Positions 930 through 20,134 of a stretch of DNA of 22,178 nt are shown here, piece after piece (positions within the stretch are counted from its first letter, which is position 1; each line of letters starts with the position of its first letter). Made by a program: the position numbers and the translations under genes. The notes beneath the pieces are model-generated. The model was not told where the DNA came from. It ran no database searches and was given only the letters and a program-made list of their open reading frames with translations. Origin of the DNA: Octopus sinensis (taxonomy: Eukaryota); assembly GCF_006345805.1 (NCBI RefSeq), contig NW_021837007.1, positions 1-22,178 on the forward strand. Reading direction: 5' to 3'.

Positions 930-1128
930 GGTAAGCTGACGGAATCGTTATCCCACCGGACAAACTGTTTAGCGGTATTTCGTCCGTTTTGCCGAGGTCG
1001 ACTTTGCCGTTCGTCCTTTCAGAGTCGATGAAATAAGTGCCAGTTGAGATTTGAGGTTGATGTAATCGACTATTCCCCTGCCCCAAAATTCCAGGCTTTC
1101 TGTCAACAATAGAAAGAAGGAAATTATT
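930..1128 (+). mobile_element. SINE family B, tail type 1, second adjacent copy
   Basis: TTAGCGGTATTTCGTCC..GCCGAGGTCGACTTTGCC..GATGTAATCGACT..CCCCAAAATTCCAGGC; homologous to 9115-9347 and 16117-16348 up to the tail. Confidence 0.8.
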
Positions 1129-1329
1129 TCACACTTCATTGAGTCCGACATGTACTGCTTGTTCCACAGCCCCTCTATCCTACCTCCAAATACAGAGCTG
1201 GCTTTCATCACCCTGCGATCTAGTCTATCACTAACGCAACCATCATTAGAGACTATACTGCCTAGATTAAGGTGCCCGCCTTTACAAACCCCAGCACTTC
1301 GCTAACAATGTGCTAAGGTTGTTTTGCTG
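1126..1329 (-). pseudogene. RTE-clade LINE reverse transcriptase C-terminal fragment
   Basis: Minus-strand translation LGSIVSNDGCVSDRLDRRVMKASSVFGGRIEGLWNKQYMSDSMKCEI matches the RTE pattern YLGS..S.DG.....I..RI.KAS..FG.L...W.......TK; disrupted. Confidence 0.7.
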
Positions 1330-1975
1330 AGGGTTCAGCTCTTCCACCGTTGAGATTTTGAGGGGGCATCTTTTAAGTTTTTGTGGGTCGATGCAGATGA
1401 GAAGTGATCCATCTTTTTTCACAGAATCTGCCATGCTTGAACACCAATCTGTATGTTGTTTCACAGGTTTGATGACCCCCATTTCTTCCATCTTCTGGAG
1501 TTCAATCTCGGGCTTATTTTTCAGTTGAACTGAGCATTTCCGAGGTGGGTTAATGAAGGGTTCTCAATCTGCTTTTATGTATAGTTGTGCGGCTTCCTCG
1601 AAGTTGCCCCGGCTGTCGAAAAGATTTGGGTTATGTTTCTTTCAGGTCTTCGATTGTTGTGAAATCAGGAGTTGAGTCCATAACGTGATCACAATGTATT
1701 GGGATTAATTTCATTGTTGGTAACCCGATGATTGATGGTCCCATCCACCTCTACCACATAGGATTTGGCATCATGGAATTCGCTGCTGTTTGAGCAAAGC
1801 TGAAAATGTATTGATCCCAAGCATTTCTTGGCTATTGTATGCCATCAGATGAATGTTTATCTCTGGTATTAGCATAACTGCAGTTGGAGTCGATTTGTAC
1901 ATCTGACGATATGTACGCATTGGCAGTGTGTTGCCTGCTGCTCCCGTATCAAGTCTTTAATTTTATCTGTTGTGT
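1330..1975 (-). pseudogene. pol: Gypsy pol fragment: aspartic protease plus RT N-terminus
   Basis: LDTGAAGNTLPMRTY (DTG at 1942-1950) and MEEMGVIKPVKQHTDWCSSMADSVKKDGSLLICIDPQKL..ISTVEELNP; frameshifts and stops present. Confidence 0.88.
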
Positions 1976-2149
1976 TTTTTTCTTTCTGTGGACATATGAT
2001 ATCCAATGTTGCAAATGTTTCATTTCGCATGCTTGAAGTTTGTATTCAATGGCAGAGATCCCAGTTCTCTTCGTCTGAGTCTGTAGGAGTCTTGTGGCTT
2101 GATTCTATATTATGGAATTTTTTGTGTGCTTTTTTTTCCATTGCCATTT

Positions 2150-2852
2150 TTCTGTCTTGTTCTATCTTGTTTGTTCCGTTGACGACAGAATATTTTTCCA
2201 GTGTCCCTTTTTGTTGCAGAAGTTGCAGGAATCATTGCATTCAGGGGTCTTTCTTGAGGGGTGTAATCGTCCACAATTTCCACATGAACGCTTGACAGAA
2301 TCTATATTGCATGGTCCTGCGTTTGCAACTTGTTGTATATGACTTCTTCCTTCAAGAATCGCTTCAAATTTTCGATCCCTCTGTTAGGGCTTCTTCAAGC
2401 TTTCCAAGCTCCTCTTTTGGGAAGGCTTCAATGGGAGTTGAACCAATCAATAATTCAATGCTCCGTTCTTCAAGCTCTTTTTCTTCAAACTCACATTTTT
2501 TTTGCTATTGCTTGGGCTCTTATAACAAAGTCGTCAACTGCCTCATCACGCTGCCGTCTACATTCCATCAGTTTAAGGCGATGTCCTCTGAAATTGATGT
2601 TTGTCTTGACTTGTGCTTCAAACAATCCCCACAGTTTATTTGAGTTTTTCTTGTCAGCGCCTGATAAGCCAGATGCATTCAAACGTTTGAGTCCTTCATT
2701 TCCGATGCCTCTTAATATTTTTAAAGCTATTTCTTTGGTTCTATAACCTCCTCATCTTCACAATAGTACACGATGTTTTGTTTGAATATTTGCAGGGCTT
2801 CGGCTGCATTGTCTGTGTGTCACTGCATGTCGAGAATGTGGGATGTCGCCAT
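2150..2852 (-). pseudogene. gag: Gypsy gag
   Basis: ATG at 2852-2850: MATSHILDMQ*HTDNAAEALQIFKQ...IALKILRGIGNEGLKRLNASG...QRDEAVDDFVIRAQAIAKK...; knuckles CGNCGRLHPSRK and CNFCNKKGHWK at 2185-2290; contains stops and frameshifts. Confidence 0.85.
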
Positions 2853-6660: not shown

Positions 6661-6759
6661 GCTCATGTTGCTGTGCCCTTTCTTGTTACTATGAGCAAAT
6701 TTGTAAGTTGAAATCTGTTGTAAAACCATCGGTACGAACAGCGCCACCTATATCGACAC

Positions 6760-7390
6760 TGTCAATGCCACTACCACCAACGCTGGCCCTAACAACAACA
6801 ACAACAATAACAATACTACGACGGTAACACCACCAATGCTAGCACCAACACCAATAACGGTTCCACCAATAAAAACCAACATCATCACCGACATCACCAC
6901 CGGCAATAGCAAAAGGAACACCACTAGCGCCACCAACAACAACAACACTAAAAATCACACCACAAACGACACCCGTACTACCATCGATGCCACCAGCACT
7001 ACCAGTACCTACAGCACTACCACCAACACCACCACCACCACCATCATCATCATCACTACCACAACCCCTAACACCACCAACAACACCACAACATCTAACA
7101 CCACCATTATCGCCACCACAACCTCTGACATCACCACAACAACTAACACCACCACCATCATCACTACCACAAGCCCTAATACCACCAACAATACCACAAC
7201 CATTAATACCACCACTACCACAACCTCTAACATCACCACAATCACTAACACCACCACCACAACTTCTAACACCACCATCGTCACCACCACAACCTCTAAA
7301 ATCACCACAACAGCTAACACCACCACCACCACAACTTTTAACACCACCATCATCGCCACCATCACCACACCTACAACAACATTAACCGTA
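6760..7390. repeat. ACC/AAC-rich degenerate minisatellite
   Basis: Recurring 21-30 bp units of the form TAACACCACCACCATCATCACYACCACAACC. Confidence 0.85.
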
Positions 7391-7654
7391 ACAGCAATTA
7401 TGATAATTTCCATTGTTGTTTTTTAACCCTTTAGGCAACTCTTACAAAGAGACAGATGGTCGAAGACAATCGAGCTGTGACCAACACAACATATTTTTAT
7501 CATTGTCTACCTTGAAATGCCTTATCCAATGTGGTTTTTCTTTTTCTTTTTTTTTAATACAAGGCATGATTTGAGGAATATTTGATTGCTATTTCTTATA
7601 GGTGTAGCGATCGCGTAGAGCAGTCAGGATCAACTTCTTTTTTTTTTCCGAAAA

Positions 7655-8689: not shown

Positions 8690-9483
8690 TTCATGCCGTA
8701 AAAATAACAATTAAATCTCCCTAGAATTACACCTACAGCATAAAAAAGAACACATCAAATAATCTTTTCTACTATAGGCACAAGGCCTGAAATTGGGGGT
8801 AGGGGACAGTTGATTACATCGATCCCAGTACGCAACTGGTACTCAATTTATCGATCCTGAAAGGATGAAAAGCAAAGTTGACCTCGGCGGAATTTGATGT
8901 CAGGACGTAGTGGCAGACGAAATACCCATTTCTTTACTACCCACAAGGGGCTAAACACAGAGGGAACAAACAAGGACAGACAAAGAGATTAAGGTCAATT
9001 ACATCGACCCCAGTGTGTAACTGGTACTTATTTAATCTACCCCCGAAAGGATGAAATGCAAAGTCGACCTCGACGGAATTTGAACTCAGAACATAAAGAC
9101 ACTGACGAAATACCTATTTCTTTACTACCTACAAGGGGCTAAACACAGAGGGGACAAACAAGGACAGACAAACGGATTAAGTCGATTATATCGACCCCAG
9201 TGCGTAACTGGTACTTAATTTATCGACCCCCGAAAGGATTAAAGGCAAAGCCGACCTCGGCGGAATTTGAACTGAGAACGTAGCGGCAGACGAAATACCA
9301 CTAAGCATTTCGCCCGGCGTGCTAACGGTTTCTGCCAGCTCGCCACCTAGAACACATTAAACAATACTGTGGTCCTGTGTCAGCTGCGCTTGGGGAAAAA
9401 GATGGCAGGCCGTAGCTGGAATGATTTTGATCATAGGTCTGTTGTATGAGAAGGGCTGACCTGGGGCTTAACAACAACAAAAC
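8690..9483 (+). mobile_element. Interspersed repeat 3' portion (family D) ending in (AAC)n, split by the SINE B array
   Basis: 8700-8763 plus 9349-9483 joins into a sequence similar to 15590-15720 (CACCTAC..AAAA..ACAT..GATGG..GCTGGA) and ends GGGGCTTAACAACAACAA. Confidence 0.55.
8764..9348 (-). mobile_element. Triple SINE family B array: one head, three bodies (tails 2, 2, 1)
   Basis: Units at 8764-8926, 8927-9114 and 9115-9348; the whole array is flanked by TSD AGAACACATCAAATAAT (8747-8763) / AGAACACATTAAACAAT (9349-9365). Confidence 0.9.
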
Positions 9484-14198: not shown

Positions 14199-14854
14199 AA
14201 CAACATCAGCACAACAACACAACAACAACACAACAACCAGCAACACAACTAACAACAAATAACGCAGCTAACAACAAACAACACAACTAACAACAACAGC
14301 AACACAGCTAACAACAACATCAGCACAACAACAACATAACAACAAACAACACAATTAACAACAAACAACACAGCTAACAACAACATCAGCACAACAACAC
14401 AACAACAACACAACAACCAGCAACACAACTAACAACAAATAACGCAGCTAACGACAAACAACACAACTAACAACAACAGCAACACAGCTAACAACAACAT
14501 CAGCACAACAACAACATAACAACAAACAACACAATTAACAACAAACAACACAGCTAACAACAACATCAGCACAACAACACAACAACAACACAACAACCAG
14601 CAACACAACTAACAACAAATAACGCAGCTAACGACAAACAACACAACTAACAACAACAGCAACACAGCTAACAACAACATCAGCACAACAACAACATAAC
14701 AACAAACAACACAATTAACAACAAACAACACAGCTAACAACAACATCAGCACAACAACACAACAACAACACAACAACCAGCAACACAACTAACAACAAAT
14801 AACGCAGCTAACAACAAACAACACAACTAACAACAACAGCAACACAGCTAACAA
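14199..14854. repeat. 180-bp tandem satellite, about 3.6 near-identical units built from AAC-rich subunits
   Basis: Sequence at 14221, 14401, 14581 and 14761 is identical apart from one A/G site. Confidence 0.95.
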
Positions 14855-18942: not shown

Positions 18943-19213
18943 ATTATATATACACACAATCGCACGCGCGCACACACAAACACTTATATATATATATGCA
19001 GAGATAGGACAAAATAACGGAAACACCACTTTTTATTCATTTTATCTTATTTGTTTGTTGGCAACATAACAAATCCAAAACTGCTCTCGTCCATATATGT
19101 GTGTGTTCATATACATTATGGATGTCTTGTGCTTCAGGATAGAACCTTCTGTTTTTCCTCCTTCCTTTCCTTTTCTTTCATTATGGAAGATATTTATATA
19201 TAAATAAGTTAAA

Positions 19214-19298
19214 ATGCATGACCTATCAGATTTCCAAGGCGGACAAATCGTTAGAGCACGGATCGCTGGTGTTTCTCTCACTAAAACTGCTGAATCAC
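19214..19298 (+). pseudogene. Tc1-like transposase N-terminal relic
   Basis: MHDLSDFQGGQIVRARIAGVSLTKTAES matches the Tc1 paired-like HTH start (DLSDFQRGQIVGAR.AG.S.T.TA). Confidence 0.7.
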
Positions 19299-19351
19299 AA
19301 TTCTATATTTATGAAATGAGAAACTTATTATGTAAACTGTTTATGTAAGTC

Positions 19352-19865
19352 CAACTGGTGACCTCATCCTCATTGTAGCTTTCACTACATTTTGGTTGTT
19401 GTACGCTCCACCCTTCTTCAGGTGTTGTTTGTTGAACTCAGTTGTCTAATCGGGATAAAGATTTGATCAACGGCGGTACACTGTTCTTATTCATTCTTAG
19501 GTTCGAAATCCCTATTCGACAAGCGAGTTCAACTCAAGACACCTGAAGAAGGCTGGAGCATACAACAGCCGAAACGTAGTGAAAGCAACAATGAAGAGGA
19601 GGACACCAGAAGAGGACACCAAAAATGGATGAGAACAGTGTACTGCCGTGGATCGAATAAAGGGTTAGGTTCGAAATCCCTATTCGACAAACGAGCTCAA
19701 CACAAGACACCTGAAGAAGGGTGGAGCACGCAACAGTCAAACCGTAGTGAAAGCAACAATGAAGAAGGGGACACAAGCCCGACCGAGTTCAACACAAGAC
19801 ACCTGAAGAAGAGTAGAGTGTACAACAGCCGAAGCGTAGTGAGAGAAACAATGAAAATGAGAAGA
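19352..19865. mobile_element. Penelope-like pseudo-LTR repeat cluster: one inverted plus three direct copies
   Basis: Minus copy at 19352-19497; plus copies with CTGAAGA at 19543, 19711 (period 168) and 19803; each carries a hammerhead-like motif. Confidence 0.75.
19540..19581 (+). ncRNA. Minimal type-I hammerhead ribozyme (family 1)
   Basis: CAC-CUGAAGA-A-GGCUG-(10 nt loop)-CAGCC-GAAA-C-GUA-GUG: both core boxes, 5-bp stem II, palindromic ACGU stem III, GUA cleavage triplet and CAC/GUG stem I. Confidence 0.7.
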
Positions 19866-20134
19866 TCAAACCGACTAATATAAATATATAGTGTATATTA
19901 TTGCTGAATTGTATAATGTTTCGAGAGGTAGGCATTCGAAAACCATGGTAAAACCAGCTCTGCGAAGTATTATCTAAGACGGAAGGCAAAACTCGCAGAC
20001 AGGAACAGCGAAATAATGGAACATATTATGTCTTAAACCCATTGAACTACGGCAGCAAAAGTGGCGGCAGTGCTAAGCCACCGCTTTACCAACCTTGTGC
20101 CTATCTATCTACCTATCTATGCAATATCAGGAGT

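What the first reader, a model, noticed from the sequence alone, without database searches (positions are those of the whole stretch)
19352..19865. Tandem and inverted array of minimal hammerhead ribozymes (Penelope pLTR or retrozyme-like unit)
Seen: four copies of a unit of up to ~168 bp, one inverted and head-to-head with three direct copies. Each contains CACCTGAAGAAG...CA(G/A)(C/T)C.AA..GTAGTG. Copy 19540-19581 has a complete type-I hammerhead (CUGAAGA, one extra A, stem II GGCUG/CAGCC, GAAA, loopless palindromic ACGU stem III, GUA triplet, CAC/GUG stem I). The other three have damaged GAAA boxes or stem II. Established: Penelope-like elements carry minimal hammerheads with palindromic stem III that cleave as dimers in tandem pLTRs, and they often show an inverted 5' copy. 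Inference: this is a non-autonomous self-cleaving retroelement whose progenitor could release ~168-nt RNA monomers or circles. No RT or GIY-YIG ORF is visible nearby.
Basis: partly seen in the sequence, partly recalled or inferred. Interest (0 to 1): 0.72.

Follow-up and report, generated by a model that had tools for sequence, protein, structure and literature searches.

The report
Decayed Penelope retrotransposon stub with hammerheads
These four repeats are cut-short, decayed end-pieces of a Penelope-type jumping gene, likely laid down in a single insertion, and one of them still carries the small hammerhead-ribozyme motif typical of such elements, so the locus is a mostly ordinary fossil and probably not a source of RNA circles.

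Summary
The four copies and the minimal hammerhead at 19540-19581 are real. They are 5'-truncated pieces of the terminal repeat (pLTR) of a Penelope-like element, one inverted with a tail and three direct. They sit inside one 8-bp target-site duplication in a Tc1-like fossil; 10 of 14 paralogues show the empty site. Longer copies elsewhere join this repeat to RT and GIY-YIG frames. A sister family has a full pLTR-ORF-pLTR copy and supplies most of 2,481 intact pattern matches. Its hammerhead differs only at N7, H17 and loop II, which suggests past selection, but no stem covariation was found. The 168-nt monomer idea fails: spacings here are 168 and 92, and neither recurs in 130 other loci. Three of the four motifs are broken, and family copies decay like dead DNA. 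A family-level extra: the full pLTR starts with a tRNA-derived A/B-box head at which many short copies begin, possibly a Pol III promoter. The window's copies lack that head. This scan noted the same head before on other DNA, including this genome. Cleavage and expression are untested.

The parts
19288..19295 (+). Left copy of the 8-bp target-site duplication
   Evidence: Same 8-mer at 19902-19909; single copy at the empty site in 10 of 14 paralogues of the host repeat
19297..19492 (-). Copy A: inverted, 5'-truncated pLTR (reference 138-331) ending in the tail
   Evidence: 82% identity over 179 aligned bases, 19314-19492; tail end at 19297 read by eye against the family tail
19383..19424 (-). 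Broken hammerhead in copy A (G12>A, C15.2>U, stem II mismatch)
19497..19609 (+). Copy B: direct, 5'-truncated pLTR (reference 176-288)
   Evidence: 89% identity over 113 bases
19540..19581 (+). Intact minimal type I hammerhead motif; predicted cut after 19578; cleavage untested
   Evidence: features as in PMC4209133
19629..19783 (+). Copy C: direct, 5'-truncated pLTR (reference 140-294), starting at the ATG that likely opens the element's ORF; broken hammerhead at 19708-19749
   Evidence: 85% identity; same frame runs on into the ORF in sister-family copies L247 and L241
19782..19901 (+). Copy D: direct, 5'-truncated pLTR (reference 201-310, aligned to 19890), no tail; broken hammerhead at 19800-19841
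   Evidence: 84% identity
19902..19909 (+). Right copy of the 8-bp target-site duplication
18991..19295 (+). Left half of the older host repeat, likely a Tc1/mariner-type transposase remnant
   Evidence: Paralogues join it directly to the right half; paralogue frames give weak Pfam DDE_3 and HTH_Tnp_Tc3_2 hits below cut-off
19902..20108 (+). Right half of the host repeat

Best explanation
The array is a decayed remnant of an endonuclease-positive Penelope-like retrotransposon: four differently 5'-truncated copies of its hammerhead-bearing terminal repeat lie inside one 8-bp target-site duplication and were likely written in one insertion event by the element's own RT and GIY-YIG endonuclease. 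Shown: the family link to RT and endonuclease frames, the TSD and empty site, the inverted copy with a one-sided tail, and an intact motif in copy B only. Inferred: the endonuclease nicked an A/T-rich site in a Tc1-like fossil; reverse transcription started near the 3' end of the repeat, stalled and restarted several times on the same kind of RNA, and gave the inverted and tandem stubs. In the active ancestor the hammerhead overlapped the first codons of the ORF and would have cleaved weakly, as a dimer through the ACGU palindrome or with protein help. Today the locus has no promoter head and no ORF, and is most likely inert; copy B is probably intact by chance.
For: Family link: 6 of 6 long family copies tested give tblastn hits to RT/endonuclease frames (E 2e-60 to 1e-6). 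L047 carries RT, thumb and GIY-YIG remnants directly upstream of the repeat. A sister-family frame hits Pfam RVT_1 (E 1.2e-9, over cut-off; 1 of 3 proteins hit). Another scores 0.96 to Atlas clusters with PF26215 (90-98% of members) and GIY-YIG (13-19%). L247 has two hammerhead-bearing repeats 2,575 bases apart around the ORF, and the frame through the hammerhead runs on into the ORF in L247 and L241, as in PAc (PMC11167929). One event: TSD at both ends, chance 39 of 5,000 random flank pairs; empty site in 10 of 14 paralogues; all four copies share a letter seen in 5 of 28 and 2 of 19 other copies. Architecture: 60 of 130 family loci hold copies on both strands; inverted pLTR, tail and 8-10 bp TSD are described for Adineta Penelope (PMC3846280). 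Past selection: 30 of 30 constrained positions are identical between the two families while 20 of 51 free ones differ (P 2.5e-5). Decay: CpG sites 203 of 463 changed; core 40 of 704, stems 88 of 812, free sites 93 of 1,032; only 6 of 61 copies spanning the motif are intact.
Against: No compensatory base pair: 0 of 10 pairs in 21 copies. Rfam finds no hammerhead. The motif overlaps a reading frame, so part of its conservation could be for protein. The sister-family line used came from loci picked by the hammerhead pattern; the independent majority line agrees but leaves one column unresolved. The core sites show somewhat fewer changes than free sites (5.7% against 9.0%), which may reflect their A-rich make-up but is not explained by a test. 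No full-length copy of this exact family was found; the pLTR-ORF-pLTR evidence is from the sister family (about 75% identical in the endonuclease region). B and C are closer to each other (13% different) than other pairs (17-24%), so a later duplication or conversion inside the array is possible. No tree was built, so the clade is inferred.
Confidence: 0.85

Rival explanations
1. The array is a non-LTR retrozyme-like unit: a non-coding tandem repeat whose hammerheads release a fixed monomer of about 168 nt that circularises and is copied in trans.
For: Tandem direct copies with type I hammerheads 168 apart; size is near the 170-400 nt range of animal retrozymes (PMC7229834). A short non-coding derivative with a unit of about 308 bp does exist in the family (L131).
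Against: Second spacing is 92; the 12 same-strand spacings in 130 other loci run from 252 to 836. The copies start at four different points. The repeat is the end of a coding element. The hammerhead is the minimal PLE type, not the canonical one of retrozymes (PMC4209133, PMC7229834).
Confidence: 0.05
2. The template was not the full-length mRNA but a short SINE-like RNA of about 330 nt, predicted to be made by RNA polymerase III from the tRNA-derived head of the pLTR and copied in trans by Penelope enzymes. This changes the source RNA, not the family.
For: The family pLTR begins with A and B boxes. In the sister family 8 of 8 copies that reach the head's first base stop within 7 nt of it (12 of 30 reach the head at all). 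In this family 17 of 90 reach the first 10 nt; 4 run on 57 nt or more by script, about 3 more by eye, and about 10 stop there.
Against: None of the window's four copies reaches the head, so this locus cannot tell. A 12-nt palindrome lies at the same spot and could stop or fold back the RT; palindromes at pLTR 5' ends are described in PMC3846280. The long copy L241 also starts at the head, so the head may simply mark the pLTR start. No RNA evidence.
Confidence: 0.35
3. Copy B is a locally useful, selected ribozyme rather than a chance survivor.
For: It is intact at all constrained positions, including two CpG sites that are often lost.
Against: 6 of 61 copies are intact by the same descriptor, so one of four is unremarkable. 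Only stem II is predicted stable in the monomer (z -0.7). A transcript across the locus would fold as a long hairpin against copy A (z -11.6), and the B+C and B+D dimer folds lie 10 and 8 kcal/mol above the minimum. No gene was identified around it.
Confidence: 0.04
4. The CUGANGA/GAAA pattern is a by-product of the protein-coding frame, not a ribozyme.
For: No covariation; no Rfam match; the motif lies in the ORF's first codons.
Against: The two family differences at N7 and H17 change amino acids, while nine third-codon positions at constrained sites are unchanged (counted by hand; third positions in the RT-endonuclease region differ at 76 of 248 between one copy of each family, decay included). 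The same overlap holds for PAc, whose motif cleaves (PMC11167929).
Confidence: 0.06

Closest known systems
Minimal type I hammerheads in pLTRs of metazoan Penelope-like elements (PMC4209133; parts 1-2 of 4 read: abstract, results, discussion, start of methods)
   Same: Extra base between 9 and 10.1, G10.1-C11.1 pair, palindromic 15.2-16.2 with no loop 3, short stem I, mostly single or opposite-strand copies scattered through the genome
   Different: Stem II is 5 bp and stem I 3 bp here, against 7-8 and 4-5 bp in the schistosome examples
PAc, Poseidon of the green anole (PMC11167929; parts 1-2 of 4 read, main text)
   Same: RT followed by C-terminal GIY-YIG; ORF starts inside the pLTR and overlaps the hammerhead; optional tail; A/T-rich target
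   Different: Here the ATG lies upstream of the core rather than at stem II; the pLTR starts with a tRNA-derived head, which that text does not mention; all copies I saw are decayed
Adineta vaga Penelope insertions, e.g. Pen2a (PMC3846280; passages read)
   Same: Inverted pLTR next to direct pLTRs, tail on one end only, 8-10 bp TSD, ORF start inside the pLTR, palindrome at the pLTR 5' end
   Different: The window's insertion has no ORF body and three direct stubs; Pen2a has a TATA/Inr-like promoter, this family A/B boxes
Animal non-LTR retrozymes (PMC7229834; passages read)
   Same: Type I hammerheads in short tandem repeats
   Different: Those have canonical hammerheads and a constant monomer; here the motif is minimal, the spacing varies and the repeat belongs to a coding element
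Schistosome SINE-like hammerhead repeats (as reviewed in PMC6765202; passages read)
   Same: A promoter followed by a hammerhead, as in the family's head-bearing short copies
   Different: Here the head is part of an autonomous Penelope pLTR, and it is missing from the window's copies

Membership tests
EN+ Penelope-like element | Single ORF with RT followed by a GIY-YIG endonuclease | tested here: met
   Family level, not in the window. GIY-YIG itself rests on the Atlas look-alikes and on motifs read by eye; Pfam gave no GIY-YIG hit
EN+ Penelope-like element | ORF flanked by direct pLTRs, ORF start inside the pLTR | tested here: met
   Sister family L247 and L241; for this family only the 3' pLTR-ORF link was seen
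EN+ Penelope-like element | 5'-truncated partial tandems, inverted 5' copy, one-sided tail, short TSD | tested here: met
Penelope/Poseidon clade | RT phylogeny groups with Penelope/Poseidon | not tested
   No named PLE references on hand; assignment from domain order and likeness to PAc only
Minimal PLE hammerhead | CUGANGA and GAAA boxes, NUH triplet, stems I and II, palindromic loopless stem III | tested here: met
   Copy B; commonest family letters once CpG decay is allowed for
Minimal PLE hammerhead | Compensatory changes in stems | tested here: inconclusive
   0 of 10 pairs in 21 copies; the two families have identical stems, so there is little variation to test
Minimal PLE hammerhead | Self-cleavage as a dimer or with protein help | not testable with these tools
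   Needs an in vitro assay
Non-LTR retrozyme | Constant monomer repeated head to tail | tested here: not met
   Spacings 168 and 92; neither recurs in 130 loci
Non-LTR retrozyme | Non-coding element with canonical hammerhead | tested here: not met
   Repeat is linked to RT/EN frames and the motif is minimal
Non-LTR retrozyme | [quoted passage not shown] | not testable with these tools
   Only assembled contigs were available
tRNA-derived SINE (family-level reading) | tRNA-related head with A and B boxes | tested here: met
   Family reference, not the window copies. Box pattern in 1 of 5,000 and 0 of 5,000 shuffles; best alignment to 22 distinct tRNA sequences from this genome reached by 2 of 300 (this family) and 0 of 300 (sister) shuffles. 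Not a tRNA gene: no ARAGORN call at default, no Rfam hit, strict invariant pattern not matched
tRNA-derived SINE (family-level reading) | Transcribed by RNA polymerase III from the head | not testable with these tools
   Only the pile-up of 5' ends, which a palindrome could also cause

The most novel reading that the evidence does not exclude
This Penelope lineage captured a tRNA-derived segment as the start of its terminal repeat and uses it as an RNA polymerase III promoter, so that an autonomous retrotransposon sheds its own SINE-like, hammerhead-bearing short RNAs, which its enzymes copy in trans by the thousand; the window's array would be one such product, truncated below the head.
Probability: 0.35. 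Interest if true: 0.6.

Novelty: new member of a known kind. Interest (0 to 1): 0.28.

Why it matters
The locus itself matters little: it is one fossil among an estimated several hundred to a thousand copies of a known kind of element. It does give a clean worked example of a Penelope insertion, with exact ends proven by empty paralogous sites. The family is more interesting. If its tRNA-derived head is a working Pol III promoter, it would show a SINE arising from inside its own partner retrotransposon and would make the open question of what Penelope hammerheads do testable on a short, abundant RNA.

Tried and rejected
Rfam on the whole window and on 19300-19950: no hammerhead; only microsatellite-driven chance hits. 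Rfam on seven family loci and two head regions: no tRNA or hammerhead. Expression: no RNA holder listed. Contigs of five runs guessed to be RNA gave only short partial matches, mostly with differences or loose ends typical of other family copies, and no joints; contigs cannot show ends or circles, so this is no evidence either way. Several short contigs in those runs end at 19574-19576, near the predicted cut, but this is also a CpG branch point of a high-copy repeat, so I did not count it. A joint across the insertion in DNA runs most likely comes from paralogues of the host repeat, not an empty allele. A search for other hammerhead families with a different stem II gave 36 matches, nearly all double mutants of the sister family; two copies of a third repeat have another stem II but no pairing stem I, so they were not used as covariation. 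A spliced-intron reading of the short family variant was rejected because the junction does not keep the splice ends and falls on a shared 5-base word. A second search for longer copies of this family returned hits about 80% identical, which I took for the sister family and did not analyse further. PDB gave only weak RT matches. One row of alignment A1 (L247) was entered on the wrong strand and ignored. The Lunse et al. dimer paper was not held; I know it only through the review PMC6765202. Literature searches showed no title or abstract opening on an octopus Penelope hammerhead or a tRNA-headed Penelope pLTR; passages of PMC13282606 and PMC8967140 list Penelope families in octopus, and 'hammerhead' does not occur in the main text of the first. 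Repeat libraries such as Repbase and Dfam and these papers' supplements were not seen and may hold the family.

Full report
Observation. The window is a whole 22-kb contig of a 2.72-Gb animal genome, probably an octopus; that rests on my recall of its repeats and on earlier notes of this scan, not on a test. Self-comparison finds four related segments in 19297-19901, one on the minus strand and three on the plus strand. Copy B (19540-19581) has every part of a minimal type I hammerhead: 3-bp stem I, CUGAAGA, an extra A, 5-bp stem II, GAAA, the ACGU palindrome and a GUA triplet ending at 19578. My descriptor passes only B among the four copies and hits 0 of 200 shuffled windows. Copies A, C and D have core or stem II damage. 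Rfam reports no hammerhead. The hammerhead spacings are 168 (B to C) and 92 (C to D).

The family. A DNA search of the genome gave 1,152 first-look candidates, 40 scored, at 75-92% identity. A 28-base pattern just 3' of the core has 192 matches within two mismatches, control 0, which implies roughly 400-600 copies without indels at 10-12% divergence and more in all. I fetched 90 of these 192 places. Against a 332-nt majority reference their mean identity is 88%; 3' ends cluster and 5' ends are scattered. The window's copies cover reference 138-331, 176-288, 140-294 and 201-310. Among 130 family loci (some fetched twice), 65 hold one copy, 60 hold copies on both strands, and the 12 same-strand spacings run from 252 to 836; none is 168 or 92. 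There is no fixed monomer.

It is the end of a Penelope-like element. Walking upstream, 4 of 29 loci continue into coding sequence, and L047 shows broken RT, thumb and GIY-YIG frames directly before the repeat. That region finds a sister family about 75% identical. One of three sister frames hits Pfam RVT_1 above cut-off; another scores 0.96 to Atlas clusters carrying PF26215 and, in 13-19% of members, GIY-YIG. These frames hit 6 of 6 long copies of the window's family by tblastn and nothing in the window. Sister copy L247 has two hammerhead-bearing repeats 2,575 bases apart around the ORF, and in L247 and L241 the frame that starts shortly before the hammerhead runs through it into the ORF. 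The same frame appears in the window, from the ATG at 19629. PAc of the anole has this overlap too (PMC11167929, main text read). I did not find a full-length copy of the window's own family and built no tree, so 'Penelope/Poseidon' is inferred.

One insertion. An 8-base word stands at 19288-19295 and 19902-19909; random flank pairs share such a word in 39 of 5,000 draws. The flanks are two halves of an older repeat, likely Tc1/mariner-type (weak Pfam hits below cut-off in 3 of 4 paralogue frames; none in 2 others). In 10 of 14 paralogues the halves overlap by exactly those 8 bases with no Penelope sequence; the other 4 align poorly at the site. The tail is on the inverted copy only. All four copies share a letter found in 5 of 28 and 2 of 19 other copies, and they differ from each other by 13-24%. 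Inverted pLTR, one-sided tail and 8-10 bp TSD are described for rotifer Penelope (PMC3846280, passages) and for PLEs generally (PMC8557442, passages).

Is the hammerhead real? A strict pattern for the intact motif has 2,481 matches, control 0; the 100 listed, all on one chromosome, have the sister family's loop. Between copy B and the sister majority, 30 of 30 constrained positions agree and 20 of 51 free ones differ, among them N7, H17 and four loop II positions (P 2.5e-5). That sister line came from 29 pattern-selected loci (one 41-base match dropped); the line from loci selected on coding sequence agrees except for one unresolved column. The changes at N7 and H17 alter amino acids while nine constrained third-codon positions do not change (hand count), which points to RNA-level constraint in the active lineages. 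Against this, no pair shows a change on both sides in 21 copies (0 of 10 pairs). The features match the published minimal PLE hammerhead, which cleaves not at all as a monomer and weakly as a dimer (PMC4209133, parts 1-2 read). In PAc, cleavage needed the protein and was not needed for insertion in vitro.

Is this copy functional? Probably not. Inserted copies decay like dead DNA: 44% change at CpG sites against 6-11% elsewhere, and 6 of 61 copies spanning the motif stay intact. The monomer forms only stem II with confidence. A plus-strand transcript of the locus would fold back on copy A. In an intramolecular dimer B's core would cut the partner's site, after 19746 or 19838, and those folds lie 10 and 8 kcal/mol above the minimum. 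A cut after 19578 needs a second intact core, so two separate transcripts.

A family-level extra. The full repeat begins with a tRNA-related head. Both families have an A box and a B box; the box pattern arises in 1 of 5,000 and 0 of 5,000 shuffles, and the best match to 22 tRNA sequences from this genome is reached by 2 of 300 and 0 of 300 shuffles. It is not a tRNA gene. Short copies tend to begin there: 8 of 8 sister copies that reach its first base stop within 7 nt (30 examined), and about 10 of the 17 family copies that reach it stop there (90 examined). L241 begins there too. A Pol III start would explain this; so would a 12-base palindrome at the same spot. The window's copies lack the head. 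I stated this reading before opening the scan's notes; they hold the same idea for other DNA, including this genome, and are not independent support. Searches did not show it in print; repeat databases and supplements were not seen.

Verdict. The locus is a new copy of a known kind of element, most likely inert. Interest 0.28; the Pol III-headed pLTR is the open, more interesting possibility (probability 0.35).

Noticed in passing
L106, L109, L111, L131, L166, L174, L180, L201, L205 and others: A short variant of the family joins the tRNA-like head straight to the hammerhead (about 125 bp missing) in roughly 20 of 90 loci; in L131, L166 and L205 the tail runs through a short linker back into the head, a non-coding unit of about 308 bp. 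This is the best candidate for a true non-autonomous derivative.
   Followed up: partly
L247 and L241 (G000:C1:74999596-75002919 and C2:104075099-104078422): Near-full-length copies of the sister Penelope family, with stops and frameshifts; an (AAT)n microsatellite of variable length lies between the head and the ORF start.
   Followed up: partly
window 18991-19295 and 19902-20108: Old Tc1/mariner-like transposase remnant split by the insertion; about 70-75% identical paralogues elsewhere.
   Followed up: yes
L330:1501-1536 and L349 (minus strands): Two copies of a third short repeat with hammerhead boxes and a different, pairing stem II, but no pairing stem I and no RT nearby in L330.
   Followed up: partly
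window 8813-9299: A 187-bp unit in 2.6 tandem copies, 84% matches; looks like pieces of a common SINE-type repeat also seen in many fetched loci (recalled, not tested).
   Followed up: no
window 14199-14854: A 180-bp CAA-rich array, 3.6 copies at 99% identity, so a recent expansion.
   Followed up: no
window 969-2751, minus strand: Short open frames that by eye resemble decayed retrotransposon coding pieces (gag/RT-like at 1282-1563 and 2491-2751, LINE-like at 969-1301); Pfam gave nothing significant.
   Followed up: partly
window 6707-7426: A 239-codon Thr/Asn-rich open frame inside a degenerate triplet repeat; no Pfam match, probably not a gene.
   Followed up: partly
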